Assembly: GCA_000004985.1 (NCBI GenBank) | Contig: GG738856.1 | Reading direction: 5' to 3' (one strand) | Source of the DNA: Naegleria gruberi | Taxonomy: Eukaryota | DNA: 64,000 nt | Shown: positions 3,628 to 57,161 of the stretch, piece after piece | How positions within the stretch are numbered: position 1 is the stretch's first letter | Layout of the letters: each line of letters starts with the position of its first letter | Notes under the pieces: model-generated | Databases searched by the model: none | Seen by the model: the letters and a program-made list of their open reading frames with translations, nothing else | What the model was told of the DNA's origin: nothing | Made by a program: the position numbers and the translations under genes

Positions 3628-5427
3628 TTATTCCTTTTCAAAATATTGAGGATAGGTTTTACGCAACGCTTCAACAAGAGGGTACTTGTTTGCATCTTTC
3701 TGTTCCGTTGCTTCCTTAATTCCTCTCTCAAAATATTGGTTTGCTCTTTCTAAATCTCCTAAATGGCAATAAGCTGCTCCCATATTGAAATAGGCAACAC
3801 AAAAACTTGGATCAATTTCAAGAATTTTCTCACACTCTCTAATGCCGCTCTCATAATCTTTTTCTACAAAGAAACAATCAGCCAAGTTACTTAAATTCTC
3901 TAAATCTTTGGTTTCATTGTAGCTTTCCAAGTAGTATTGTCTTGCCATTTGATAATTTCCATTTTGAAAATAATATTCTGCAACAAATCTCAAAACTGCA
4001 GGATAATACTTTTTAGCTTCTTTTGCCAATTCCATTATGAGATGGTCATTTCCCTTCTTCATATGTGAATAAGTGAGAATAATGTAATAGATTCCAAGTA
4101 AATGCTCTTTTGGAAAAGTGTTTTGTGGCTTCTCTAGTAATTCCTTCAATTTTTCACATTCCTTAATGGCATCATCCAATCGATTGACATATGAATATAT
4201 AGTACACCAAGTGGCAGAATATTGCAAAATACGTTGGATTGGTGATTCTGTTGGTGGTGGATTGTTTTCAATCATCTCAATACCATTCTTTTCATATAAT
4301 TCCAATGTAGTAATATAAAATCGTGTACAATCTATAAACTCTGCATAATCTCCAACAATTAGGCATAAATATCTATACATTCCATGATTTTGAAACATTA
4401 AAATGGGATCTTTTTGATAATATTGCTTCATGCATTGCATTGCTTGTTTGTATTCCTTTCTTTTCAAATAGTATTCTTTCATCATTTCGTGTAGTTTTTG
4501 ATATTCTGATAAAATTTTCTCATCCGTTCTAGTTTCCTTCTTTTCGAGCTCTTTCACCAAATTGTACGTCTCGATAACTAGGTCGTGGTTCTTTAAATAT
4601 ATGAAAGAATCTAACATGAGAACTAGAGATTCGTATTTTGAGGAAGCTAATGAGAGAGCTCGTTCGAAATCTTGTCTTCCACATTCAATCATTTTATACT
4701 TTATAATCAATACACTTCCTCTTCTACATAACAATGAAGCCAAATCATCAGCTTCCTTACTTCCAATTTCAATTGGTCCAATTGACTCAATTGATTTAAT
4801 TCCCTTTGTGGCATAAGAAATAGCCTTTTCAAACTGTTCCAATTCATAACACATGGAATAAAGTGAACTATAATATGAAAATGGCACTTGAACTGCATTA
4901 TTCGAAACAATTTCAAATGCTCTTTCCAAATAATTATTAGCCAATTGAACATTGTAATTCTCCTTTTGTATATAAAACCAATACAATTGTTCCAAAAGTG
5001 AAACCATATCATCTCTATTTGGTTCAATCTCTAAAACCTTCTCTAGATCAGCACATGCAAGTTTCCATTCACTCAATCCTTCATAACATTTTGATCTTTC
5101 AATCAAGGCATCTGTGAAATTTGGATTAAATTCCAACAGTTCATTCAATTCTCCAATTCTTTTCTTGTTCCTCACCTTGTTATCATTATTTTCAGCATCA
5201 TTTTCATCACCTCCGAAATTATCTAAATTATTATTGTTGGAGGAACGAAGAGGTGAAAACAAGTTGTTGTGAAATTTGCGTTCGTTTGTAGGTGATGATG
5301 TGAATTCTTTTCTTAAAGTGGAAATTAATGATCGGTGATGAGGAACCTTGCAAGTTGATTTTTTGAATGTTGTGGAGAGAAATCCTTTGGGGAGACGACT
5401 GGAGAGTTTGATCATTTTTTTTAACAT
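3628..5427 (-). CDS. TPR-repeat protein, 599 aa, with a low-complexity basic N-terminus
   Basis: Multiple 34-residue TPR-like units, for example AYFNMGAAYCHLGDLERANQYFERGIKEA. The ORF is continuous. Confidence 0.65.
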   Translation of the reverse strand: MLKKMIKLSSRLPKGFLSTTFKKSTCKVPHHRSLISTLRKEFTSSPTNERKFHNNLFSPLRSSNNNNLDNFGGDENDAENNDNKVRNKKRIGELNELLEFNPNFTDALIERSKCYEGLSEWKLACADLEKVLEIEPNRDDMVSLLEQLYWFYIQKENYNVQLANNYLERAFEIVSNNAVQVPFSYYSSLYSMCYELEQFEKAISYATKGIKSIESIGPIEIGSKEADDLASLLCRRGSVLIIKYKMIECGRQDFERALSLASSKYESLVLMLDSFIYLKNHDLVIETYNLVKELEKKETRTDEKILSEYQKLHEMMKEYYLKRKEYKQAMQCMKQYYQKDPILMFQNHGMYRYLCLIVGDYAEFIDCTRFYITTLELYEKNGIEMIENNPPPTESPIQRILQYSATWCTIYSYVNRLDDAIKECEKLKELLEKPQNTFPKEHLLGIYYIILTYSHMKKGNDHLIMELAKEAKKYYPAVLRFVAEYYFQNGNYQMARQYYLESYNETKDLENLSNLADCFFVEKDYESGIRECEKILEIDPSFCVAYFNMGAAYCHLGDLERANQYFERGIKEATEQKDANKYPLVEALRKTYPQYFEKE

Positions 5428-9168: not shown

Positions 9169-11412
9169 CTATGGTGTATATTCAAAGAGAAGAGGAGAGG
9201 TAATCGGAATAAAGTTCTTCATCAAAACTATGAGAACATTACTTGGTTCTTCTTGTGGTGGAAGAGTAACCAATAGAGGACTGGAGTGAACAAACTTGGA
9301 TAATTCTTCATCAAGATTTGGAATATTTCCATTGGCACCAACAAGAGTTACTCTATTGCTGAGATCATTGAGGGCAACAAGAGTATCATTGTCATAGGAA
9401 ATAACTGGATTAACACAGAATGCTTTCAAATTTTGTCCATCCTTAACTTGAATGATGAGGAATTGGAGCATATCTGTTGGCCTCAGTTCAAAATTATGAT
9501 TGAAGGAAACAATGGCTGGTTGGGAGTATGGACCATATGATGGTGTGATATTGTATTGATAATTGTTGGCAATATTGAGAAGGTTGAGATCATACTTGGA
9601 GGAAGGAATAGGAAAGCTACTCATTGGTCTTCTATTTTGTTGGTTCAACAATTCCATCAATTGTTGATTCACTAATTGTTGTCGTTGTTGAATATGATTC
9701 AAGACAATTTGCTTTTTAAGTTGTGAATTTGCATCGTTAACATCACTAGCAAACAATTGATTCATATTTCCCATATTATTGCCGAGACCAATGTTACCAT
9801 TGCTAGGTATTCTCCTCATGGAATTCATCGAATGATGAAGACCATTAGCACCCGAGCCCATCATGGAACCTCCATCATTACCACCACCAATATTTGCAGA
9901 ACCATTACCAAACAAATTAAATTGTGATTGTTGAGCCAATTTTTCCATCGTTGTTGTTGTATTGTTATTGTTGTTATTATTATTGTTATTAACACTATTA
10001 CTATTAATATTTGACGAAGACGATGCACGAGTTAAATTTGGTTGAGAAGAGGTGGCCGAACTTGAATTATTGGCGTTACGGTTAGAGGAAGTAGTTGTGG
10101 TGGTTGCTGAGGAGAGCTGTTGGCTTTGATTTGATGTAGAGACGTTTTTTTGACTCAAAAAAGGGTGGCTTAGGAGTAATTCTTTCACTTCTGCTGACAT
10201 TACTGCAGCAACTGAATTATTTTGATGGTGAGGTGGTGAGGTGTTGTTATTGGTAGCAGAAGCGGAGGAAGTATGGAATGCGTTTTGTGTTCTGGAAGAT
10301 AATTTGTTTGATGGTTCAGATTGCAAAGTTTGAGGTATTTGATTGGATGAGGAGGAGAAGGGATTCTTTTCCGAATTGTCTTCATCATCCATCATGGTGG
10401 CTTCATTATCAAATGTTAAGGATGCAGCAGAAGGATTTGAGAATTTGGAATCAAGGGAAGAAAGTAATGAGGTAAGGTGTTGAGACAATTGAATGCTACT
10501 TGAGGAGGTTTTCGTAGATTTGGTAATGCCATGATAATGTCCATTTGTGTTATTTAAAAATCCGTTAGGAACATTTCCGTTTTGTGTGTGGTGATGGCCA
10601 AATCTAGAAGTCATTAAAGAGTTATTAAGCGAACCGTTTTGTGCTGGATTGGTGCCATTCGTAGGAATTTCCATATTATTATTATTGTTAGAACTACCCA
10701 TTAGGTTATTTAAGAGATTTAAATTGTTATTACTCTTTGATGAAGTCATGTTATTATTAACAATGTTATTATGACCATTATGACTATTATGGCTATTATT
10801 ACCAGTGGCACCAAGATTAGATGTAGTAGAAGGTGCATTTAGTGGAGGAGGAGATGATTTCTCACTCGATTCAAATGTTCTTTCACCAGCTTCAATGTTA
10901 TTTTCCTTCATGAGTAACCATTCCAATACCCAATACTTTTCATCACTGAGCATGTAGACAACACATTTAGGAATACGTTCCTTCTCATGTAATGAAGAAG
11001 CCTTCTTGTGATATACAAAACCAATTTGATCAACTGTTTGAGATCTTTCTCTGAACATGACAATATCACCAATATTATAGAATGGTTTCACTGTAATATC
11101 ATGATGAGAACCAGCAGATTCTGAATGTCCATTCGATGATGCATGTCCATTAGAGTTTGTATTTTGATGGTGGTTTGTAGATGATGTTGCATTATTAGCA
11201 GTGTTTGTAGTTGTTGCATCCATCAAGAGAGCTGAAAATGAATCAGAAGCACCAATATTATTAGACGAATCAAAATGATGAGTATTAGCATTATGAGGAT
11301 TCATTTCAGGGTCAGTACTAGTAAAGATCTTTCTCAACTTTTTCTTATAAACACCTCCAGCATCCTTATCATAAATCACTGACTTTTTTTTAAGGATATT
11401 GTTGGCAGACAT
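9169..11412 (-). CDS. Low-complexity N/S/T/Q-rich nuclear-type protein, 747 aa, function unknown
   Basis: Long continuous ORF. Globular N-terminal and C-terminal segments flank poly-N and poly-S tracts. Confidence 0.55.
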   Translation of the reverse strand: MSANNILKKKSVIYDKDAGGVYKKKLRKIFTSTDPEMNPHNANTHHFDSSNNIGASDSFSALLMDATTTNTANNATSSTNHHQNTNSNGHASSNGHSESAGSHHDITVKPFYNIGDIVMFRERSQTVDQIGFVYHKKASSLHEKERIPKCVVYMLSDEKYWVLEWLLMKENNIEAGERTFESSEKSSPPPLNAPSTTSNLGATGNNSHNSHNGHNNIVNNNMTSSKSNNNLNLLNNLMGSSNNNNNMEIPTNGTNPAQNGSLNNSLMTSRFGHHHTQNGNVPNGFLNNTNGHYHGITKSTKTSSSSIQLSQHLTSLLSSLDSKFSNPSAASLTFDNEATMMDDEDNSEKNPFSSSSNQIPQTLQSEPSNKLSSRTQNAFHTSSASATNNNTSPPHHQNNSVAAVMSAEVKELLLSHPFLSQKNVSTSNQSQQLSSATTTTTSSNRNANNSSSATSSQPNLTRASSSSNINSNSVNNNNNNNNNNTTTTMEKLAQQSQFNLFGNGSANIGGGNDGGSMMGSGANGLHHSMNSMRRIPSNGNIGLGNNMGNMNQLFASDVNDANSQLKKQIVLNHIQQRQQLVNQQLMELLNQQNRRPMSSFPIPSSKYDLNLLNIANNYQYNITPSYGPYSQPAIVSFNHNFELRPTDMLQFLIIQVKDGQNLKAFCVNPVISYDNDTLVALNDLSNRVTLVGANGNIPNLDEELSKFVHSSPLLVTLPPQEEPSNVLIVLMKNFIPITSPLLFEYTP

Positions 11413-12003: not shown

Positions 12004-13650
12004 CTAAATACGGTTCTTTTTGAATATCTGCGTGAGTGGACTCAATTCAGAGAAGTCGCCAGTATTTTGACCGGATGATGGGATGTGATCTGAAAATAGA
12101 GAGGGAGACAAACTTGTATTTTCACTAGGGAAAGAATTGTTACCATTAATCATATTTGCACCGAAACTTGTTGCACTATTGGCATTGGTGCTGATATTAT
12201 TATGAATAGTGTTGGAAGATGATGTTCCATTCATTGTGGTATTGATAGATCTGAAAAGGAATCGTGGAGCTTCATCATCCTCATCCTCATCACAATTATT
12301 AGGCACATTAAGCATGTGAAAATCCCTTTTGAGGGAATTTTGAGAGAAAGATCCATTGTAAAAACTACTTCTCTGGTGAGAGGTACAAGATCCCTTGTGA
12401 TGTTGGCTGTGTTGATGGTGATGATGATTTGAGGATCTTGTAGTACTATTTGTAGAGTTGTATGAATGAGGATGATTAGGGTAGGATAATTGTTGAGTTG
12501 TTACACTTCCAGATAAAAGTGCATTTGCAAACGAATAATCTGTTGGAAGTGAAGAAAAATCAAATGGACCACTAATTGTTGTATTTGGTAAATTGGAGAG
12601 GGGATTAAATTGAAATGGGAAAGCAAATGGATTTGGAGGTACTTGTTGTTGCTGATTTGATATTGTCGTATTATTATTATTATTCATGAGAGGAGCAATT
12701 CCTTGTGATGTGTTAATATTATTATTCAATAATGAGTTTGATGAAGAAAGATTTGAGGATTCAATACTTTGTTGTGATTCATTACTCATAGTTGCAATTG
12801 TACAGTTATTATTATTGTTATTATTGGAAGTCAATGGTGAATCGGAATTCAACATGGTTACATTATTGATTGGAGAGGAAGGCATGGCATCATCATTCTT
12901 ATTCGTCTGTTGTGGTGAGTTACCATTCGAAGATATGGAATTATGTACAGAGAGTGAAGACATTGGAGAGGTAGTGGAGGCTCTATTAGGAGGTGAATTT
13001 TCTCCATTATTCATTATTGATGAAGACATTGGCTCGGAATTCATAGTTGTTGTTGCATGATTATTACTATTATTACTATTATTATTATTAGCATTATTTG
13101 TATTGTTATTGGTAGTGTTAGTAGTATTGGCAGCCAACTCTTCCTGAAGTACTTGATTCATCATGGTCAATACTAAATTGATGGGAATTTGTGCATTTTG
13201 TGTTTGTTGTTGGTTAGAGTATTGCAATAATAGTGAGGAGAGTCTTCTGAATGATTTCTTGACTCCTTGTTGATAGGATTTTCTGTAGGCTAGAAGAGAA
13301 CTCGTATAGAATTGAGCAATTAAATTGGCTGATTGAACAAATTGTCGGTTGAGTTGATTTTCATCTCCACTCGGATCTATAGTTCCAATATTTGCTGTCT
13401 GGGTAAATACAGAAGTAAACAATCCCTCCGTTGAGCTATTATTTTGTTGATTTGTTGTCGAATAATTTCTATTGTTGGTAGGTGTTGTTTGATTGGCTTG
13501 CCAATTACTACTTGTTGATCGATTCCCAGAAGAAGAATTGATAGAATTAAATGATGAGGTTCCGAATCTTTGATTTGTATTATTATTATTATTACTATTG
13601 ACTCCTCCTGTTCGATTATTGCTGTTGTTCATCTCTGAATTTGCAAACAT
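12004..13650 (-). CDS. Low-complexity N/S/Q-rich protein, 548 aa, function unknown
   Basis: Continuous ORF with codon bias like its neighbours and poly-N and poly-H runs. Confidence 0.5.
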   Translation of the reverse strand: MFANSEMNNSNNRTGGVNSNNNNNTNQRFGTSSFNSINSSSGNRSTSSNWQANQTTPTNNRNYSTTNQQNNSSTEGLFTSVFTQTANIGTIDPSGDENQLNRQFVQSANLIAQFYTSSLLAYRKSYQQGVKKSFRRLSSLLLQYSNQQQTQNAQIPINLVLTMMNQVLQEELAANTTNTTNNNTNNANNNNSNNSNNHATTTMNSEPMSSSIMNNGENSPPNRASTTSPMSSLSVHNSISSNGNSPQQTNKNDDAMPSSPINNVTMLNSDSPLTSNNNNNNNCTIATMSNESQQSIESSNLSSSNSLLNNNINTSQGIAPLMNNNNNTTISNQQQQVPPNPFAFPFQFNPLSNLPNTTISGPFDFSSLPTDYSFANALLSGSVTTQQLSYPNHPHSYNSTNSTTRSSNHHHHQHSQHHKGSCTSHQRSSFYNGSFSQNSLKRDFHMLNVPNNCDEDEDDEAPRFLFRSINTTMNGTSSSNTIHNNISTNANSATSFGANMINGNNSFPSENTSLSPSLFSDHIPSSGQNTGDFSELSPLTQIFKKNRI

Positions 13651-14291: not shown

Positions 14292-17200
14292 GTGAACCAA
14301 TTCTTGGTTGTCTTCCAAACGCAAACAAGTCAACAACCACCAACAAGTGCACTCTACACTAACTCAAAGATTTCTTCATCAATTTTCATTATCCAATCTT
14401 TCATGATGTTATCATCATTATTCACCATCAATTTTAATAGGAAAACAATTCCTTCCAATCATCATCATCACCATGTAACTCTGCAGAGTGTGTTGAAAAG
14501 GTTTGGCTTTGCGTTGCTTGTTGTTGTACTTTTAATGATAATAACTCCCGCCTTTTCAACTTACACAACCGAAAAAACAAAACAAGAACATGATACGAAG
14601 GCTTTGCATAGGCTGGAAAAGTTTCATCAGCATCATCACGATGATTTAAATAACAATAATATTCTGCGAGTGGGAAGGAAAGGAAAGAATAGACTTTACC
14701 ATCATGATGAACGAAAGAAGAATCATCAAGGAAGAGGAGAAAAAGTTTTAAAACAACAACTTAGAAGTGTTTCCACTTCACAGGCTAGTGTTGTACCAAC
14801 ATTTTCATTACCTTCGGTGGTGAATTTATATGCCAATACGCCTCTGTATATTCCTATCATTTTGACTAACCAAGTAACATCAGGAACAACATTTGAATAT
14901 AGTTGGAAAGTTTACAACTCTACAAATGATATTACTTTAGCATCTGGAACTACACCAACAGTTTATATTGGAGAATATGATTTGGATCTTTTGAAAACAG
15001 TAACTTATTATCAGAATATTGTTGGATCAATATCATCACCTGTTTCTTCTTGGAATATTTATGTGGAGGTCACATCACGAGGAGATTATGGAATCATCAT
15101 TGCCCAATACAAAAAGACAATACCATTCAATTTGTACTTGTTGGGTGTACTTGCAACTATTGTGGGAGAGAATCAGGACCTGACCTTGATAACAGATCTG
15201 AAAACAAATCAAGTATTGAATGTTTCCATGTCGAAAATAACACCAAAAATTGAATATTATGATTCAGCAGTGAGTAAGATGGTAAAATCCAATGGACAAT
15301 GCTCGTGGACTTGTACCTACACTTTGATTTCTGGTTCAGTGAAGAATTGTTCCAACTTTGAAACATTTAGAACATTATCGAATAATAACAATTACTTACA
15401 AGTACTCATCCTTCTACTATGTCGAATCGGAAAAGTTTGAAATTCTTATACATAGCATACGTGTCAATGATTCAGTTCCAATCTTCCAAACAATTACATC
15501 CAACACTACCATGCAACAATATCATCCACCCAATCTTCCAATTACACTCACTCCAAATTTTGTCAATTACAACAATACTGTCAGAGTGGTGTTTTATTGG
15601 GAAGTTAATGGTTCACCATACCTCAAGCAAAACCTTACACTTGATTCCCTCTCTCCAAATAGCAAGTATGTGGCCAAGTGTGAAATTTACTTTCTGGGTA
15701 ATGTTCAGAGATACACATCAATGAGCTATACATTTTTCACAGCAAACAATATTACCAAGCCAAAATTCAATATTGTGACCAGTTCTGCTCTTGCATTTCA
15801 AACAAGAGTTCAAGTATCTGGCTATATTGGAGAATCAAGCAGAGGTCCACTTTGCATGACTGAAATCTTTGCAGAAACCACAAATTTTGGCAAAATCAGC
15901 TTGACCAATGGAAGACCTGTTTGCCTTCAATCGCTATTGCAAACCAGTACGGATGCAATTGCATTCCTTAGAATGCCACTCAGGAAAATCACTCTCTACG
16001 ATAATATCAAGCTCTCTTTTGTGGTAACAGATGGTATTGCACAGGAAACGTACTCTCTTACCACTTCTTCAAATCCTTCCACTATTTTGGATTACTTTTC
16101 ATCGTCCAATATTGTCAAATTAACAAGTAGTGTTTTAGACACGACATCAACTCTGTACGAAAACGATAGAACCTTGCTTCCTTCTCACATTGTTGTGGCT
16201 GCATCATTAATTATGAACTTTAAATCTTCTGCAGAAGAATCCAATTCAATGAATGTAGACTATTCAACACTGGCCTCTGGTTTAGGATCTTATCTATCGA
16301 GAATTTGTCCTTCTTCTTCAAACTATTCTCCATTGGAACAAAATTTGAATTGTATTGAAATAATTGGAAAATATGTATCAATTTCAGGTCTCACTACAAC
16401 ATTTGCTAGTACAACTCTCTCTCAGAGTATTAGTTCCAATATTGTTACATCTATATTTTATCAATTGAATCAACTCGTTTTCAATTCAATGAATGGACAA
16501 GGCACATTGCAAAATGGTGTGCTATTCCAAAAATTCTCCAGTGAAGGAGGTGAAACCTATGTCAGTCTCTTGATGGACATGCTACAAACAGCTTCCAGTT
16601 ATATTGCTCAAGATTATACTACAGTTCCAATCAATGGTACCTACGTTTCCATCAATAGTAATACTATAACTAGTACTATTTATGCAGTCTCCAAGATATT
16701 CCTCTCCAGTAGCTCCACTTCAACATTTAAATCATCAAGCTCACTCATTACCAAATTGGATTTATCTTCATTTCAATCAACAACATTATACTCACTCTCT
16801 TTGAATGGAGATGTTACTGTGCAGGTGCCACCTCTTTCATCTCTTCTTGGTAGTTTGACATCAAGCAGCTCAGTGGTCTTGTCACTTCAACTTTCACCTC
16901 AAAACAATGTCACAGATGCTGTCAATAGTACAATTATTTCTAGTAGAAAGGTTCAATTCCAGCTTTTGGATCCAAACACTGATAAGAAAATAGAGTTGAA
17001 AGATCTGAGTCAACCAATTACTCTTAAACTTCCAATCACCTATTCTTCCTTGTCAAATTCATCTCGTGACAGCTCCAAGTGTGTATTTTGGAGCGATTCT
17101 ACCAATGCATGGTCCAACACTGGTTGCGTTTTAAAACAAGCTACACAAAGTTATTTCTATTGTGAATGTAATCATACAACAACCTTTGCTGTGCTTTCTA

Positions 17201-19851
17201 CTACTCTCACAACTAGCTCAAATAATACTCAAATTCAAACAGCAGCATTCGATATGGTTCCACTTATTGTCATTTCCTCTGTAACTGGTGGTGTTATTCT
17301 AATCACTTTGGTTTTTTCTGGTGTTGTTCAAGCTTTTATTCATGTTTTGAAGAATGTTGACTCTGCTGAGTCAGGAGATTTATTCCTTCCAGCAGAATTC
17401 TTCCCAGTCAATGCCCAAATAGAAAAACCAAAAGAACCAGAAACAACAATAGAAGAGACAGAAAAGAAAGAAGAAAAAGAACCAAAGGTGAAGAAACGAT
17501 ACAAGGATCTTTCATTTGGTCTGAAAATTTTTGAATGTCTCAAAGAGTTTCACCCTGTTCTTGGTATTGTTTTTCCAAAGAAGTATTTCAAGAGTATTCA
17601 TATTAAGAGATTGGATCGTTTAATTATCCTAATGGATATTTTCATTACCACTAGTACTGTTAACGTTATTTTATTGTCAGTGAGCACTATTTCAAAAAAT
17701 TGGATATTCGTAATACCATCACTCATTTCGTTTGGCTGCTCTGTTATCAATCAAATACCAATTACATTATTATTTTGTAGGAAGCAAGCTATTTGGAAAG
17801 TTTGTGCCTATGGTTATAGCTGCGTGTTTGCGTTTGTTTGTTTGGTAATTTCTATTATTGCTAGTGCTGGAGTTTTTGTTTCCAATCAGTGGAATATGAA
17901 TATTTTGGACTGGCTGTATGCCACTATTCTAGGTGTTGCTTGGGACTTGATTGTTTTTAGAATTGTTTTGGCTTCCATTATTGCATTTTTGATTGAAGTT
18001 AAGGTTACTATTGACATGGGTATTGCAACATTCAGAAAAACTGATGAGGCAGAAAAAGAAGATCAACCATTACAAACAAAACGTATGGTAACTGTGCAAA
18101 ATAATGTAAGAATACCTATGCTATTTTCACAAAAGGAAAAGCCAAACATTCCTAAATTGAATCTCAAAGCAGTTGAAGGTGTTGCCACTCCAAAAGAAAA
18201 TCCTGTTAATGAGCTATCTTCAATGCATGCTTCGCCTACAGCAAGTGATACCACTTCCAGTAGTTCAGGTCTTGATTCCTATTTTTCACCACACAAAGCT
18301 AATCAACCAGCTGTGGAAGAAGCAAAAGAAACTTCTGCCAATGAGGAAGCCAAGACATCAAGTTCTGGTATGGAGCACTCGTCTGATAATTCAACTAGTA
18401 AGGAGGCAGAACAACAATGCATTACACCAGGATGTATTGTCGTTTTGGATTCTCCTGGCATTTCTCCAATATCTCCACTAATTCCAAAACAAGATCATGA
18501 TATGTCCTTTGTGGAGAAAGTCCAATTGAGAGATGAACTGAATATGAGCGAGGGTAAGGTTGATGAAGCCATCATCCCACCAGTGTTGGAGGATACCATG
18601 ATTATTGATGGAACTGAAAAGCAAGATAATGTGGAGGAAAGTACCAATGAACCTGTTCAAGATTCAGTTCCACAACAAGAAGAGGAAAAGCTAATAGAAC
18701 AAGCAGAGGATATCAATGAAGATTTGGAAATTGTGGAGCCAGCAATAGTTGAAACAGAACAAGTTCAACAACCTGTTGCTGAGGAAGTTTCTACAGAAGA
18801 GGTTCCAGAGGAAACAAGAGTATCTGATGAAGAAATTACCACCCCACATGAAGAGCCAGCAGTGGTCATTGTTGATGAAGTCACAAAGGAAGAAGTTGCA
18901 AATGTTGAACCAATTGTAACTGAATCTGTCCAAGAAACTACTCAATTGCCTGAAGTTGAACAAGTCACCGAAGCAACAATCGAACCAATAGAGCCAGTTA
19001 AGGAAGAATTACCAGAAATTGATACTACCAAGAAGAATCCTATCAAGATTTTGAAAGAAATTCTCAAAGAAAAGGATGTTCCTCCACCTGCTGCTGAAAG
19101 CCAAGAGCCAAAAGACAAATCAGAAAAGAATATTTTGGATTATATTGAACAAGTGACTGAACATGAAAAGAAGATTACATCTGAAAATTTGGAAAGTTTC
19201 ACATCAGAAATTCTTGAAAGATTATCTGGAAAATCAATTAGTGAAATTTTATTAATCTTGTCGGAGACTAAAGATCAACAATCAAGCAGCCAACAACAAT
19301 ACTCATCCCCACTTCGTACCAACTCACCAGTTGCAAGAAATGCTCTCCAAAAGAATACTCCAGGAAACAAATCAGCCAGAATGCTCAAGAGTGGTGGTAT
19401 TGAAATTGATAGATCAAGAAAACGTTCTCTCAGTTTCAACAAGTTGTATGGTATTGAAGAGGCTATGATCAAACCTCAAACAGATTTCTTTGATCAACTT
19501 CGTTTATATGTCAATCAAAATTATTCTGAAGAAGCCAAGGTTAAGGCATTGAATGAATTACTCTTCTTACAATGTATCTACCTCCACTATAAGATTATTT
19601 CAGTAACTCCTGAGGCAAGAAAGGAAATGGCAGAGCAAGTTGTTGCCACCTTTTTGAATGAAAAGGAACAATATCACATTAATATTGGTTTCTACAAGAG
19701 GGTACTTGCCTCATGTATTAGTGATGAAAATTTGAATGCCAACACATTTGAAAGAGCTTGTGAAATTATTGAAATTGCTTTAAAGCCTGTTATCAGCAAC
19801 TTTTTGAAGCATATTCAAGAAAAGCAAGCAAATGTAATGACAAGTGTTTAG
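14292..19851 (+). CDS. Large GPS/GAIN-motif multi-pass membrane receptor-like protein, which resembles adhesion-GPCR or polycystin. It is split into two overlapping ORFs by a frame break near 15343-15440.
   Basis: ORF 14292..15440 (signal or TM helix FGFALLVVVLLMIITPAFS, His-rich) and ORF 15358..19851 overlap in different frames. The extracellular S/T-rich N-glycosylated region ends in the GPS motif CVFWSDSTNAWSNTGCVLKQATQSYFYCECNHTTTFAVL. At least 5 TM helices follow, then an acidic E/P/V-rich tail. Confidence 0.7.
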
Positions 19852-24408: not shown

Positions 24409-27400
24409 ATGATGAGGAAACAAGAAAGTTTGATTAAAAAAACAGGGAATTTTGGTGATTTTTCTAATGCTGCCACAGCATCTATATCGGAAAATTCGGG
24501 ACAGAGGATGACACCTAGCCAATCGAAGGTTTATCCAAGTTTAATGGCAAGGAGTTCACCATTATCTTCATCTCCATACTGTTCTTCCAAATCATCAACA
24601 TCTGCATCCTGTAAATTATCCAATCAAATCACCAACACAAACAAGAATGTAAATAATCAAGATTCTGAAAATCAACAACAAAAAAGTATTGAAAGTGTAA
24701 AAAGTTCTTTTCACACTAGAACTCATTCAATACTTTCCCCTCAATGTAAAAACATTCAACCATCACAGTCAACTAGCTCATCAAAAACAAATGAAGGAAC
24801 AGTAACAAAACATGTAAAGTTTGTTATTCCAGAACGTAAAATTCCAAAACCAGAAACAAAAAAGGATATAACAACTACAGTTCCAAAGTTGGCAAGGGAA
24901 AAACAAAATCATCGTTACAATATTAATTTTTTTAATAGACCAACAATAACTCGAGATGGTCAAACAGTTCAACCTCCCCAAACCACTCAACCTTCTCCTT
25001 CATCTTTACAAAATAAGAGAAGTTTTGAAAATTTCAAATCTAGCTCTTCAAAATACGAGACATCAAAAAAACAAAAGAAAGACATCAATATGATAAACTT
25101 TCAAAAGAATTTATTTGAAATTCAGAAAGAGTTGTCAGAACAACCTTTCATCTCAAATGCCAACCCACTGACACCATCTCCAGAAAGCAATGGTCACTCA
25201 TCAGTATTTAACAACAACAATACTGTTCAGAAGGAGGAAAATCTCAAAATGCAAACCCCTCAATACTCTAACACCAATTTCATGATACTATCAGACTCTC
25301 TAGAAAGTATTACTATAGCAGAGGATTTATTAACTATCGACGATTCAATAGTGGAAGAAGCTATAAGCAAGGTCTTTAATTCAAAGCTTGGAAGATCTTT
25401 TTCATCAAGTACCAAAGAGAAGTACCTTCGTCATCTAATCAATCCCGAGGAAATTTCAAGGCTGGGAATTAAAGATTTATTTGGAGAATATTACCCCTCA
25501 GTGGGATATTTTACATTGAAAGATTCCAAGCCAATTTTCAAGCAAGTCAGCGATGGTTCTTTGACAAACATTACTGAAGGAACAGGGAAATCAATATATT
25601 ACTCCTACTCTAGATTAGCAAGATTGTTAATGAGTTTGGATTTAGGACGAGCCATGATGTTTGTCATCTTTTCTGAAGATGATTGGGATCATGAGGAAAA
25701 ACGAGTTTTAATTGAAAAAGCTTCTATAGATGGATTTAAGCATTCCTCTATCGAGTACAAATTCTTTGGTACAAGTAATTCTGGTATTAATGGGCATACA
25801 GCTCTGTTCATTGACACTCGATTGAATTTTGCTAAAATACATGACCTGCTGGGAGATTTTAGTGAGTGTGCCAAAGCTGGACCAAGGAAAGCTTTCAGTC
25901 GTATTGCTCTTGCATTAGGAAAAAGTTTTCAGAGTTTAGTCGAGTTGAAAAAGGAAGAATTATGGGTTCTGTACGATGAAGAGGATTATCCAGGTGTTGG
26001 TATGTTTTTTATTTCATGAAATTCAATAATTCTTACTTGAAAAGATGGTGCAGGCTTCATGCATGAGGATTACTTTCAAGATATTTTGAGAAATACAATT
26101 TGCACACCTTATTTTGAAACAAGGAAAAACACAACTGAAGCAGTATTTATGGATTGTAAAATTGAGGAAATTGTTGCAATGCAATTCAGAGCATTGGGAA
26201 TGAAGGGCGTCTTTCAGTCTATTCCCGATGAATATTGGAAGGAACTTCAAACGAGGCATGGCTTTCCAGATACTGTAAAATGCGTGGCAAGACCTTCAAT
26301 GATCAAATTTATGGGAAATTCGGAAGTTTATAGACATTTTGATGTTTTAAATGTTTCTAGAATTCAAGGAGGATCCATTAATAGAACATTCATGTCATGT
26401 ATGCTTAGAAGAACAACTAATAAGGAGGCCATGCAACAACTTTTCGTTAAAATGTTGGATGAGTACATCAAGAGTGAATCCAATATTCTAGATACAAAAT
26501 TCCTCTACAACTCTCTCCTTTCGAATGAAGTTTTCGATAATGGAGATTCCGTTTATAGGACAATCAAGAATTTACTCTTGGCAGGATTTGGAATGGAAAA
26601 TCCATTTGTTTACAAGTACATTAAGAAGAGAATCAAGGCAAGATTTCAATCCATGATTGATAACAAGCTGTGTCTCAAGATGAAATCAAAATTCTCAGTA
26701 ACTCTGATGGGAGTCATAGATGAGAGTGGTGAGCTAAATGCGGATGAGGTTTATATTCCCTGCCTCAAATTGCAAGAGCAATTAATGAGGGATTATTACA
26801 AATTGAAAGAGGTGATTGTCTATAGACATCCACTTGCTTACGAAGGAGATATTGCCAAGTTGAAATTGAGAAAAGATCCATGTAATGAATTTCTAGCATC
26901 TAGATCTAATGTCATTGTATTCCCAAAGGTTTTCAAAGAGAAATCTCCTCATCAATATCTAGCAGGAGGTGATTTAGGTATGTTTTTATTTTGAATTTTT
27001 CAAATTGACTCAATTCTTTAGATGGTGATGCTTATGAAGTTGTTTTTGATATGGAAATTTTGAAATTATTCGATAAGCATCCAAAACCAATTGATTACGA
27101 TGAAGGGAAGCAATCCAGTGGAGCAACCTCACAATCTATTCAACCTGTTACCAAGTTACAACCTTGTGATATTATCAGGGAACATGTAAAATGTTTTATT
27201 CAAAAACATACTCATACAGGTCTCCTTTTCTACTTTAATACTATTGCCAGAGACTCTGACGATATCAAATTAAAGGTTGATCTAGCCAAAGCATATTCCC
27301 ATTCTATAGATGCTATGAAGGGCTTTGAGCAGGATTTTAACAAACTCATTGAAAGAGCACGAGCTTTACCAGTTCCATACTGGTATCAACAATGGAAGTC

Positions 27401-27887
27401 GGTAAAGGTTTCAAAATGGGCACCAACTGATGCAAACATTACAATATTTGAAAATTTAATGTTAAATAAGGTTGTACATGCCTATCAGAAAATTGAATTT
27501 AAAAAGCCAGTAGAGATTGATCCTGAATTAATTGTTGAAACGCCAAAGGACACAGTCATGTGGAAGCTTGATTTTGATAACACGTATCAAAAATGGAACG
27601 AGTATTGGAAATCTAAAAAGAGAGTATTCGAGTCAACAACACAAGTAGAATTTACATTCAATGATAGATTCTTCAATGAACGGCTCAATTCAATTATGGC
27701 CAACACGATCTCTCACCAAAAGAACAAGTACCATAGCGATGAACCAGATTGGCACCAATTATTTTGTGGAAGTACTGTTGGAAAACAACTCGTAGCAAAA
27801 GCAAGTTATTGGATGCAACTTGCCTACGAGAAGGAAAAGGAACTTGCACAAAAGAAAAGAAGGGAGAGTTCAAGAAATCAATTCTAA
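24409..27887 (+). CDS. RNA-dependent RNA polymerase (eukaryotic RDR/QDE-1 family) with three exons and a low-complexity N-terminal region
   Basis: ORFs 24409..26019, 26059..26994 and 27051..27887 are colinear. They are separated by GTATGT...AG introns of about 45-50 nt near 26000-26044 and 26978-27021. Splicing the second intron reconstitutes the catalytic motif YLAGGDL|DGDAYEVVF (DLDGD). Confidence 0.85.
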
Positions 27888-28389
27888 AAAGTCCCTTTCT
27901 CTATACATGTGCCTTGCACTATTTGCAAATGCTTAAAAGTAATGAGTACAAATATCTTTTTCATCCGCACGTTAGAGTAAAGATTTGTTAGAGTGGTAAT
28001 ATTCGAGTTAAAATGGAAACTCTCAATTCGTCATTAGCCATACTTGCCTCACAAACTGATAAGTCCTTGATGAGCTTTTTCTAATTGACAAAGTTTCAAT
28101 TATATCTTTTAAATATGGAAAATTTTCAAATCGGGTCTCTTCATAGAATTTAATTAAGAACCCGTTCCAATATAGTATGACCTGTATTAGGAATTCTTAT
28201 CAAAATATTGTCATTGGATTTGTATTTATTACCTTTAAACAAACATGTTTACTTCAATCATTCTTGAAGAAATGAAACAACAAACCAATAAAACTAAACC
28301 TTGCAACAACTCCAAGCAGCACCAGCACGCACGAACCAGTTGCAACAGTTGTTGGAATCAAGAAGAAAAGGAAACAAAAACTTGATTTT

Positions 28390-35002: not shown

Positions 35003-35122
35003 GGCTACGGCCATATCACGATGAATGCACCTCATCCCGTCCGATTTGAGAAGTTAAGCATCGTCGAGCCACATCAGTACTGAGGTTGGAGACAACTTGG
35101 GAACCTGTGGTGCTGTAGTCTT
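35003..35122 (+). rRNA. 5S ribosomal RNA gene
   Basis: GGCTACGGCCATATCACG...GTCCGATTTGAGAAGTTAAGCATCGTCGAGCC...GGGAACCTGTGGTGCTGTAGTC is colinear with the eukaryotic 5S consensus over about 120 nt. TTTTTT follows immediately, a Pol III terminator. Confidence 0.9.
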
Positions 35123-56835: not shown

Positions 56836-56954
56836 TGGCCACGTAGCTTAATTGGAAAAGCAGAACAAATGGTTTCAGTACTGAAACTTAACTGCAGTAA
56901 AAAATTCGCATTTCATTCGTAGAAAAAGATGTGGGTTCGAGCCCCACCGTGGTC
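56836..56954 (+). tRNA. tRNA-like gene, probably an intron-containing tRNA; isotype undetermined
   Basis: Acceptor stem GGCCACG/CGTGGTC with one G-U pair. D-arm GCTT-AATTGGAA-AAGC. T-arm GTGGG-TTCGAGC-CCCAC. Discriminator G, then ATTTTTT. The 68 nt between the D and T arms are too long for a mature tRNA and I could not fold a canonical anticodon stem. Confidence 0.5.
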
Positions 56955-57161
56955 GATTTTTTCATTCCACTTTTTCTATATTTCAAATTTCTTTTTCTTC
57001 CAATTTACGTTGTTCTAAATTGAGTTATCGAGAACGAGTTGTGATGTTCTTTTTTACTTTCTCCCTCCATACTTTGTACCATAAATGGTAGCTTGTAGCA
57101 GCAATTATGTGAATTAAAATTGTAATACTCTTGAAAAATAAATAAATTTTTTTGAGGAATA

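What the first reader, a model, noticed from the sequence alone, without database searches (positions are those of the whole stretch)
24409..27887. RNAi-type RNA-dependent RNA polymerase whose DLDGD catalytic motif is split by an intron
Three colinear ORFs are separated by GTATGT...AG introns. Only after removing the 44-nt intron at 26978-27021 does the sequence read AGGDL|DGDAYEVVF, the DbDGD active-site loop of eukaryotic RDRs. This shows the organism has an amplifying RNAi pathway and illustrates that key motifs here are interrupted by very short introns that six-frame tracks miss. The first intron's exact donor is ambiguous: GTGTTG at about 25995 or GTATGT at 26000, with the AG at 26044.
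Basis: partly seen in the sequence, partly recalled or inferred. Interest (0 to 1): 0.5.

Follow-up and report, generated by a model that had tools for sequence, protein, structure and literature searches.

The report
Naegleria RdRP gene, intron-split catalytic motif
This is an already catalogued RNA-dependent RNA polymerase gene of the amoeba Naegleria gruberi.

Summary
The window is Naegleria gruberi NEG-M. Three colinear + strand ORFs (24409-25999, 26045-26977, 27022-27887) are joined by two short introns of 45 and 44 nt, both GTATGTTTTT...AG. The join gives a 1129-aa protein with no internal stop that reads LAGGDL|DGDAYEVVF.

It matches Pfam PF05183 (cellular RdRP) at E=1.5e-54. The exon-2 model has the RDR2/QDE-1 fold, with Foldseek E about 1e-10.

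The gene is already in the databases as NAEGRDRAFT_47340 (XP_002679650.1, UniProt D2V7P4, 1124 aa). That model uses weaker donors 6 and 9 nt upstream (GTGTTG, GTGATT). It therefore lacks "GV" and "GDL" and reads AGDGD instead of GGDLDGD.

The N. fowleri ortholog and all heterolobosean paralogs examined have PGVDG-type and GGD(L/F/Y)DGD sequences.

One new caveat: the conserved C-terminal module (KSILKSPFLYTC...) lies in the -1 frame past the annotated stop. The 3' end therefore carries a 1-nt frameshift, either a sequencing error or a real lesion.

That Naegleria has RdRPs and Dicers was already known, and an amplifying RNAi role is inferred, not shown. Interest is low to moderate. The value is a corrected gene model.

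The parts
24409..25999 (+). Exon 1. The start is ATG 24409. About the first 290 aa are low-complexity S/T/N/Q-rich, followed by the N-terminal part of the RdRP region. The Pfam match starts at aa 433, which is nt 25705.
   Evidence: ORF list; spliced translation; Pfam span aa 433-941
26000..26044 (+). Intron 1: 45 nt, GTATGTTTTTTATTT...CTTACTTGAAAAG, phase 1. If retained, it puts an in-frame TGA at 26017-26019. It splits the Asp codon of the conserved (T/V)DGxG motif.
   Evidence: Sequence. The ortholog encodes DYPGVDGCGF with no intron. Family alignment.
25994..25999 (+). Upstream in-frame donor GTGTTG, used by the public model EFC46906.1. It gives a 51-nt intron and deletes Gly-Val. Judged incorrect.
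   Evidence: The public protein is reproduced exactly with donors at 25994 and 26969. It lacks the G at +5. No homolog lacks these residues.
26045..26977 (+). Exon 2, the catalytic core. It carries DGAGF (to 26058), QFRALGMKG (26182-26208), MGVIDESGEL (26707-26736), YRHPLAYEGD (26821-26850) and the first part of the catalytic loop, GGDL+G (26965-26977).
   Evidence: Motif coordinates. AlphaFold2 model of exon 2, pLDDT 80. The top 21 Foldseek PDB hits are all RDR2/QDE-1, E 1e-10 to 7e-8.
26969..26974 (+). Upstream in-frame donor GTGATT, used by the public model. It gives a 53-nt intron and deletes Gly-Asp-Leu, turning GGDLDGD into GDGD. Judged incorrect.
   Evidence: alignment
26978..27021 (+). 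Intron 2: 44 nt, GTATGTTTTTATTTT...TTGACTCAATTCTTTAG, phase 1. It splits the codon of the second Asp of DLDGD.
   Evidence: Sequence; splicing. It is identical in an independent metagenome contig, L002. Related Naegleria genes carry an intron 4 nt downstream.
26971..27029 (+). The DLDGD catalytic loop codons: GAT TTA G|AT GGT GAT, interrupted by intron 2.
   Evidence: Ungapped alignment to GGDLDGD of maize and Arabidopsis RDR2.
27022..27887 (+). Exon 3 as read in the reference frame, with stop TAA at 27885-27887. Homology in this frame ends at about 27830 (KASYWMQLAYE). The last ~13-18 codons (...KKRRESSRNQF) are probably out of frame.
   Evidence: tblastn of paralogs and ortholog; C-terminal alignment
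27848..27991 (+). Conserved C-terminal module (F)KKSILKSPFLYTCALHYLQMLK...HPHVRVKIC*, encoded in the -1 frame relative to exon 3. Adding one base anywhere from about 27826 (after the conserved AYE) to about 27870 (before the conserved KSIL) joins the frames and keeps both conserved segments.
   Evidence: tblastn; alignment. An HMM of the module built from paralogs has its best six-frame hit in the whole window here, E=4.8e-4. Single-base repair test. There is no GT between 27825 and 27867, so an intron does not fit.

Best explanation
The locus is the Naegleria gruberi NEG-M gene NAEGRDRAFT_47340. It encodes a cellular RNA-dependent RNA polymerase of the RDR/QDE-1 family (PF05183) and belongs to a divergent clade seen only in Heterolobosea: Naegleria, Willaertia and Acrasis.

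The pre-mRNA carries two very short spliceosomal introns, 26000-26044 and 26978-27021, both GTATGT...AG. The second interrupts the codon for the middle Asp of the DLDGD loop.

After splicing, the protein has every catalytic-core signature of the family: (T/V)DGxG, QFRxxGxKG, the RxPxxxxGD strand and GGDLDGD. By analogy with QDE-1 and RDR2, the three Asp residues would bind the catalytic Mg2+ between two double-psi beta-barrels. The enzyme would copy single-stranded RNA into dsRNA or short complementary RNAs, which Dicer-like and Argonaute proteins could then use.

Shown here: the gene structure, the family membership, intact motifs and the fold of exon 2.

Inferred: use of the GTATGT donors in vivo, polymerase activity, and a role in small-RNA amplification.

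The public protein model is mis-spliced at both introns. The reference sequence also has a 1-nt frameshift near 27826-27870 that cuts off the conserved C-terminal ~40 residues.
For: - Organism and locus. Two neighbouring ORFs are exact matches to N. gruberi EFC47034 and EFC47035 on a 602-kb scaffold. The public protein EFC46906.1/XP_002679650.1/D2V7P4 maps to this locus and is reproduced exactly with donors at 25994 and 26969.
- Family. PF05183 matches at E=1.5e-54, 186 bits, over aa 433-941. PDB sequence hits are to maize RDR2 (7w82) and Arabidopsis RDR2 (7roz), with GGDLDGD aligned without gaps. The AlphaFold2 model of exon 2 has pLDDT 80, and its top 21 Foldseek hits are all RDR2 or QDE-1.
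- Splice sites. The N. fowleri reciprocal-best-hit ortholog (533 bits each way) encodes DYPGVDGCGF contiguously and reads GGGDLDGDRY. Nine of the ten relatives aligned have (T/V)DGxG preceded by two residues (N. lovaniensis P0017 has VDKS), and all ten have GGD(L/F/Y)DGD. The other ORF-joining introns found in the window with a GT[AG][ATG]GT filter use GTGAGT or GTAAGT, whereas the public donors GTGTTG and GTGATT lack the G at +5.
- Independent DNA. A metagenome contig is 99.6% identical over 25789-27379, with both introns unchanged.
- Pathway context. Three Dicer-like and ten other RDR genes are reported in N. gruberi (PMC4791657). Dicer and Argonaute homologs are reported in N. fowleri (PMC13315211).
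Against: - No transcript evidence could be obtained. No spliced transcript-derived ORF for this gene is in the protein collection, so donor choice rests on homology and consensus.
- The reference has a frameshift before the conserved C-terminal module. The N. lovaniensis ortholog locus is broken into several frames. This lineage of the family may therefore be decaying in some species.
- The RNPCLHPGD strand is diverged to YRHPLAYEGD.
- A 2026 review (PMC13315211) reports only homologs of RNAi proteins in Naegleria, not a demonstrated pathway.
- With 11 or more RdRP paralogs, the specific role of this one is unknown.
Confidence: 0.85

Rival explanations
1. The public gene model is right. The spliceosome uses GTGTTG (25994) and GTGATT (26969), giving a 1124-aa protein with AGDGD in place of GGDLDGD. 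This would be a catalytically dead RdRP-like paralog, or one isoform in an alternative 5' splice-site switch.
For: It is the deposited JGI/GenBank model. Both alternative donors are in frame, so either choice gives an open reading frame.
Against: - Every homolog examined keeps the residues that the public model deletes. That includes the N. fowleri ortholog, which has no intron at all at site 1.
- Both public donors lack the G at +5 that the other ORF-joining introns in the window have (found with a GT[AG][ATG]GT filter), while a perfect GTATGT lies 6 and 9 nt downstream.
- The public introns are 51 and 53 nt, against 45 and 44 nt. This is what a gene finder with a minimum intron length of about 50 nt would produce (inference).
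Confidence: 0.05
2. The locus is a recently inactivated pseudogene, or a C-terminally truncated allele, of an RdRP paralog rather than a working gene.
For: The conserved C-terminal module is out of frame relative to exon 3. The N. lovaniensis ortholog region is fragmented over five or more frames and is annotated as two short genes. The family is large (11 or more copies), so redundancy is plausible.
Against: - About 3.4 kb of coding sequence is otherwise open, with all catalytic motifs intact and both introns keeping consensus signals.
- A second environmental isolate has only six substitutions and no disruptions over 1.6 kb.
- A single-base error in an A-rich run of the draft assembly would explain the frameshift equally well. 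The N. fowleri ortholog itself ends right after SPFLYYC, so much of the module may be dispensable.
Confidence: 0.1
3. It is an active RdRP whose job is not siRNA amplification in a Dicer/Argonaute pathway. It could, for example, act in Dicer-independent small-RNA synthesis, in antiviral or mobile-element defence, or in another RNA-copying task specific to Heterolobosea.
For: The clade is restricted to Heterolobosea and is strongly diverged. The nearest non-heterolobosean relatives score only about 1e-8, and the NPCLHPGD strand is altered. No functional data were found for any Naegleria RdRP.
Against: All characterised PF05183 enzymes (QDE-1, RDR1/2/6, EGO-1/RRF-1, Rdp1, Tetrahymena Rdr1) act in small-RNA silencing; this is established knowledge. 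Naegleria also keeps Dicer-like and Argonaute genes (PMC4791657, PMC13315211).
Confidence: 0.15

Closest known systems
N. gruberi NAEGRDRAFT_47340 (EFC46906.1 / XP_002679650.1 / UniProt D2V7P4, named 'RNA-dependent RNA polymerase' in UniRef)
   Same: It is the same gene. It has the same start (24409), the same acceptors (26044, 27021) and the same stop (27887), and is identical over 1124 residues.
   Different: The public model uses donors at 25994 and 26969 instead of 26000 and 26978. It therefore lacks Gly-Val before DGAGF and Gly-Asp-Leu of GGDLDGD, losing the first catalytic Asp. Neither model includes the out-of-frame C-terminal module.
N. fowleri FDP41_004019 (XP_044561437.1), the reciprocal-best-hit ortholog
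   Same: It is 51% identical over exon 2. It has the same motifs (DYPGVDGxGF, QFRxxGxKG, YRNPLAYxGD, GGDLDGD and the C-terminal KSILxSPFLY) and an intron inside the DLDGD codons.
   Different: It has no intron at site 1. Its single intron is 62 nt, begins GTAAGT, and lies 4 nt further 3' (phase 2 of the Gly codon rather than phase 1 of the Asp codon). It also has a roughly 100-aa low-complexity insert before the C-terminal motif.
NaegRDR4 (EFC46921.1, same scaffold) and NaegRDR5 (EFC40243.1) of Bollmann et al. 2016 (PMC4791657)
   Same: They are paralogs in the same heterolobosean clade, 40-44% identical over exon 2. They share RNPL(A/G)YEGD, GGD(L/F)DGD and the C-terminal SPFVYTC module.
   Different: They are different genes. 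This gene is not among the ten N. gruberi RDRs in that study's alignment, so it is an eleventh. The intron structure of the paralogs could not be checked, because the N. gruberi genome is not in the contig look-up.
Plant RDR2 (PDB 7w82, 7roz, 7eu0) and Neurospora QDE-1 (PDB 2j7n, 7y7q)
   Same: Same Pfam family. The predicted exon-2 fold matches these structures, which are described in the literature as two double-psi beta-barrels, and the DbDGD catalytic loop aligns residue for residue.
   Different: Only about 17-20% identity in structural alignment. The N-terminus is different (low-complexity, with no RRM or helicase domain detected by Pfam). The NPCLHPGD strand is altered. Partners and products are unknown.

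Membership tests
Eukaryotic cellular RdRP (Pfam PF05183; RDR/QDE-1 family) | Significant match to the PF05183 profile above the curated gathering score | tested here: met
   186.1 bits against a cut-off of 23.8; E=1.5e-54; aa 433-941 matched to profile positions 58-532 of 582
Eukaryotic cellular RdRP (Pfam PF05183; RDR/QDE-1 family) | DbDGD catalytic loop with three Asp residues | tested here: met
   GGDLDGD at aa 838-844 in the GTATGT-spliced model, aligned without gaps to GGDLDGD of RDR2. It is not met by the public model, which reads AGDGD. It depends on splice-site choice, which is supported by homology but not by transcripts.
Eukaryotic cellular RdRP (Pfam PF05183; RDR/QDE-1 family) | Other conserved core motifs: (S/T)DGxG, Q(I/F)RxxGxKG, (K/R)NPxxHPGD | tested here: met
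   VDGAGF, QFRALGMKG and YRHPLAYEGD are present. The last is a clade-specific variant that keeps P and GD.
Eukaryotic cellular RdRP (Pfam PF05183; RDR/QDE-1 family) | Double-psi beta-barrel polymerase fold as in QDE-1 and RDR2 | tested here: met
   AlphaFold2 model of exon 2 only (310 aa, pLDDT 80.3, pTM 0.75). The Foldseek PDB top 21 hits are all RDR2 or QDE-1 at E 1.3e-10 to 6.7e-8, and the next hits are multisubunit RNAPs at E>=0.1. The full-length spliced protein could not be submitted.
Eukaryotic cellular RdRP (Pfam PF05183; RDR/QDE-1 family) | RNA-templated RNA synthesis activity | not testable with these tools
   Needs recombinant protein assays.
Functional RNAi amplification module (RdRP + Dicer + Argonaute) | Dicer-like and Argonaute genes present in the same genome | not tested
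   Literature only: three DCR and ten RDR genes in N. gruberi (PMC4791657), and Dicer and Argonaute homologs in N. fowleri (PMC13315211). None was found among the ten ORFs nearest the gene that were scanned against Pfam.
Functional RNAi amplification module (RdRP + Dicer + Argonaute) | RdRP-dependent secondary small RNAs or silencing phenotype | not testable with these tools
   No Naegleria small-RNA or knock-out data were found.
Spliceosomal GT-AG introns of Naegleria | Canonical GT...AG with an extended 5' consensus, removal restores frame and homology, and spliced transcripts are observed | tested here: inconclusive
   Boundaries, frame restoration and homology are met. The lengths of 44-45 nt are plausible, since a 30-nt minimum was used for N. 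fowleri read mapping (PMC8296547). Transcript evidence is unavailable.

The most novel reading that the evidence does not exclude
The intron inside the DLDGD codons is an old feature of this heterolobosean RdRP clade. It is present in two N. fowleri paralogs and one N. lovaniensis gene at phase 2 of the Gly codon.

In N. gruberi it sits 4 nt upstream, while the spliced mRNA sequence (GATTTAGATGGTGAY) stays the same. That would be an unusually clean case of intron sliding inside an invariant catalytic motif.

In addition, the in-frame weak donor 9 nt upstream could yield a minor isoform lacking the first catalytic Asp. That would be a splicing-level switch between an active and an inactive polymerase.
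Probability: 0.2. Interest if true: 0.4.

Novelty: already known. Interest (0 to 1): 0.22.

Why it matters
- **Corrected gene model.** The public protein for this gene (XP_002679650.1 / D2V7P4) lacks five residues, including the first catalytic aspartate, because both short introns were called with the wrong donor. Anyone scoring RdRP catalytic competence or building phylogenies from that entry would wrongly class it as inactive.
- **Systematic annotation problem.** Introns shorter than about 50 nt in this genome can be mis-called systematically, and a functional motif can be hidden from six-frame or ORF-based screens.
- **Gene count.** N. gruberi has at least 11 RdRP genes, not the 10 tabulated in a published survey.
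- **Biology.** None of this changes what is known. Naegleria was already known to encode RdRP, Dicer-like and Argonaute genes.

Tried and rejected
1. The first homolog search (aa 293-1129) returned only two distant fungal hits. I provisionally concluded that the gene was unannotated. This was wrong, since only the 8000 candidates sharing most words were scored in that search. The exhaustive search with exon 2 and the cluster look-up found the public N. gruberi protein and many Naegleria relatives. A shorter query later also recovered them.

2. The spliced protein could not be handed to the search of protein representatives, structure prediction or the look-up of encoding contigs. Exon 2 alone was used instead.

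3. Seven exact-product look-ups for N. gruberi ORFs and proteins found nothing, so no genomic DNA for those genes could be retrieved. The intron positions of NaegRDR4 and NaegRDR5, and independent reads over the frameshift, could not be checked.

4. A metagenome scan for the 3' end sequence found nothing. The one independent contig, L002, stops at 27379, short of the frameshift.

5. A third intron as the explanation for the C-terminal frame change was rejected. There is no GT between 27825 and 27867, and fewer than 47 nt lie between the conserved frame-0 and frame-2 segments.

6. Programmed -1 frameshifting was considered and rejected. There is no X XXY YYZ slippery heptamer in 27826-27870.

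7. The Naegleria genome paper is not held. The splice consensus was therefore taken from other ORF-joining introns in the window.

8. Synteny with the N. fowleri locus is weak. A GPS-domain gene lies nearby in both, so orthology rests on reciprocal best hits.
Full report
**Identity of the window**

Two intronless ORFs in the window (9169-11412 and 12004-13650, minus strand) are exact, full-length matches to Naegleria gruberi proteins EFC47034.1 and EFC47035.1, on a 602,266-bp scaffold. The window's 33.8% G+C agrees with the 33% reported for N. gruberi NEG-M (PMC8296547).

**Check of the observation**

- The + strand carries three ORFs: 24409-26019, 26059-26994 and 27051-27887.
- GTATGT sits at 26000 and at 26978. 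AG ends at 26044 and 27021.
- Removing 26000-26044 (45 nt) and 26978-27021 (44 nt) gives a 3390-nt CDS with no internal stop, encoding 1129 aa. It reads ...DYPGV|DGAGFMHEDYF... and ...YLAGGDL|DGDAYEVVF....
- DLDGD is aa 840-844, and the middle Asp codon is split G|AT.
- Both introns start GTATGTTTTT and are T-rich.
- GTATGT occurs only 8 times on the + strand of the window, against about 21 expected. Two of those occurrences are exactly at these ORF ends.

The description is accurate and far beyond chance.

**What it is**

The spliced protein matches Pfam PF05183 (RNA-dependent RNA polymerase) at E=1.5e-54 and 186 bits, over aa 433-941. That span crosses both junctions. Against PDB sequences it hits maize RDR2 (7w82) and Arabidopsis RDR2 (7roz), with ...AGGDLDGDAYEVVFD aligned without gaps to ...SGGDLDGDLFFITWD.

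An AlphaFold2 model of exon 2 alone has pLDDT 80.3 and pTM 0.75. Its top 21 Foldseek PDB matches are all RDR2 or QDE-1 structures, at E 1.3e-10 to 6.7e-8. Next come multisubunit RNA polymerases at E>=0.1.

The core motifs of the family are present: VDGAGF, QFRALGMKG, a variant YRHPLAYEGD strand, and GGDLDGD.

**The gene is already public, but its model is mis-spliced**

An exhaustive search with exon 2 found a 99%-identical 311-aa ORF from a metagenome. Through its cluster it led to the N. gruberi protein EFC46906.1 / XP_002679650.1 / UniProt D2V7P4 (NAEGRDRAFT_47340, 1124 aa), which UniRef names 'RNA-dependent RNA polymerase'. My first homolog search had missed it, a false negative that I corrected.

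The public sequence reads ...DEEDYPDGAGF... and ...HQYLAGDGDAYEVVF.... It is reproduced exactly by splicing at donors 25994 (GTGTTG) and 26969 (GTGATT), with the same acceptors. The deposited model therefore deletes Gly-Val at site 1 and Gly-Asp-Leu at site 2, and it destroys the first Asp of the catalytic triad.

**Which donors are right?**

- The N. fowleri protein XP_044561437.1 is the reciprocal best hit, at 533 bits in both directions.
- Its genomic locus encodes GAT TAT CCT GGT GTT GAT GGC TGT GGC TTT, that is DYPGVDGCGF, with no intron at site 1. It reads GGGDLDGDRY at site 2.
- Ten relatives were aligned: two N. fowleri, two N. gruberi, two N. lovaniensis, Willaertia, Acrasis and two from unnamed sources. 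Nine have the two residues before (T/V)DGxG (N. lovaniensis P0017 has VDKS at that motif), and all ten have a complete GGD(L/F/Y)DGD.
- The few other ORF-joining introns found in the window with a GT[AG][ATG]GT filter use GTGAGT or GTAAGT. The public donors lack the G at +5.
- The public introns are 51 and 53 nt. The GTATGT introns are 45 and 44 nt. A gene finder with a minimum intron of about 50 nt would produce exactly these two errors. This is my inference.

What is missing is transcript evidence. No spliced transcript-derived ORF exists in the collections searched.

**Independent DNA**

A metagenome contig (ERZ929261) is 99.6% identical over 25789-27379. It has six substitutions, all exonic, and both introns are unchanged.

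**Family context**

The closest relatives are all heterolobosean: Naegleria species, Willaertia magna and Acrasis kona. The next are basidiomycete and green-algal RdRPs, at E of about 1e-8.

Bollmann et al. 2016 list three Dicer-like and ten RDR genes in N. gruberi (PMC4791657). Their NaegRDR4 and NaegRDR5 (EFC46921.1 and EFC40243.1) are the paralogs nearest to this gene. This gene's peptides are absent from their alignment, so it is an eleventh copy.

A 2026 review finds Dicer and Argonaute homologs in N. fowleri but treats RNAi there as still hypothetical (PMC13315211). The claim that this gene 'shows an amplifying RNAi pathway' is therefore a reasonable inference from homology, not a demonstration.

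**The intron in the catalytic motif across the genus**

- N. fowleri FDP41_004019 carries its only intron at GAT TTA GAT GG|GTAAGT...CAG|T GAC (62 nt).
- The paralog FDP41_003380 has one at the same point (130 nt).
- N. lovaniensis C9374_006078 does too.
- All three are at phase 2 of the Gly codon. The N. gruberi intron lies 4 nt upstream, at phase 1 of the Asp codon, yet the spliced mRNA is the same.
- A metagenomic relative (P0007) has no intron there.

This looks like a displaced homologous intron, but it needs more loci to judge.

**The 3' end**

In tblastn, the N. gruberi paralogs P0009 and P0010 align beyond the stop at 27885-27887 in a different frame. That frame (27848-27991) encodes TKEKKGEFKKSILKSPFLYTCALHYLQMLKSNEYKYLFHPHVRVKIC*. 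It aligns with the C-terminal module of the paralogs (RPFVYTCCYMYLNDLK...HPSISVKV) and with RKSILSSPFLYYC at the end of the N. fowleri ortholog.

An HMM of that module, built without this gene, has its best hit in the whole six-frame translation of the window exactly here (E=4.8e-4).

Adding one base anywhere from 27800 to 27886 makes a single ORF ending at 27991. Keeping both the conserved AYE in frame 0 and KSIL in the other frame narrows the site to about 27826-27870. No intron fits, because there is no GT in 27825-27867, and there is no slippery heptamer.

So either the reference has a 1-nt error in an A-rich run, or NEG-M carries a real C-terminal truncation. The N. lovaniensis ortholog region is broken over several frames. 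That keeps a decay scenario alive for this lineage, although long-read indel errors are an equally good explanation.

**Surroundings**

The neighbours are a GPS-motif protein, a G-alpha subunit, a sulphur-transport/DUF6691 protein, a PCMT methyltransferase and an F-box/LRR protein. No Dicer or Argonaute was found among the ten ORFs nearest the gene that were scanned against Pfam. The window also holds a 5S rRNA gene and a probable intron-containing tRNA.

**Verdict**

It is in fact more correct than the public annotation.

It concerns a gene and a family already known in this organism, so novelty is low. The value is a corrected gene model with the catalytic motif restored, a flagged frameshift at the 3' end, an extra member for the N. 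gruberi RDR list, and a small curiosity about intron position inside DLDGD.

Noticed in passing
window 27826-27991 (+): The conserved C-terminal module of this RdRP clade (KSILKSPFLYTC...HPHVRVKIC) is encoded in the -1 frame, past the annotated stop at 27885-27887. A single added base in the A-rich run would fuse the frames. This is either an assembly error or a real truncating frameshift.
   Followed up: partly
L001 5127-5188; L003 3304-3433; L004 ~4672-4729; window 26978-27021: An intron interrupts the DLDGD codons in two N. fowleri paralogs and one N. lovaniensis gene, at phase 2 of the Gly codon (GTAAGT donors; 62 nt in L001, 130 nt in L003, not measured in L004). The N. gruberi intron is 4 nt upstream with identical spliced mRNA, which looks like intron sliding.
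   Followed up: partly
L004 3090-5660: The N. lovaniensis counterpart of this gene is split over at least five reading frames and is annotated as two short genes (236 and 279 aa). It is either a pseudogene or carries long-read indel errors.
   Followed up: no
window 35003-35121 (+): A 5S ribosomal RNA gene (Rfam RF00001, 105 bits, full length) sits between protein-coding genes.
   Followed up: no
window 56837-56955 (+): An Rfam tRNA match spans 119 nt for a 71-position model, suggesting a tRNA gene with an intron of about 45 nt. ARAGORN reported no tRNA anywhere in the window.
   Followed up: no
window 15270-15402 (+), 44504-~44599 (+), 63262-63129 (-): Three other candidate spliceosomal introns join large ORFs, with donors GTGAGT, GTAAGT and GTGAGT. 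GTATGT is under-represented in the window on both strands: 14 occurrences against about 42 expected.
   Followed up: partly
window 24409-27887 versus PMC4791657 supplementary alignment: This RdRP gene is absent from the published set of ten N. gruberi RDR homologs (NaegRDR1a-c, 2a-b, 3-7), so the species has at least eleven PF05183 genes. A paralog, NaegRDR4 (EFC46921.1), lies on the same 602-kb scaffold but outside the window.
   Followed up: yes
window 15358-19851 (+) and L001 6580-9374 (-): A large GPS-motif (PF01825) protein gene lies near the RdRP gene in both N. gruberi and N. fowleri. This is the only hint of conserved synteny around the locus.
   Followed up: no
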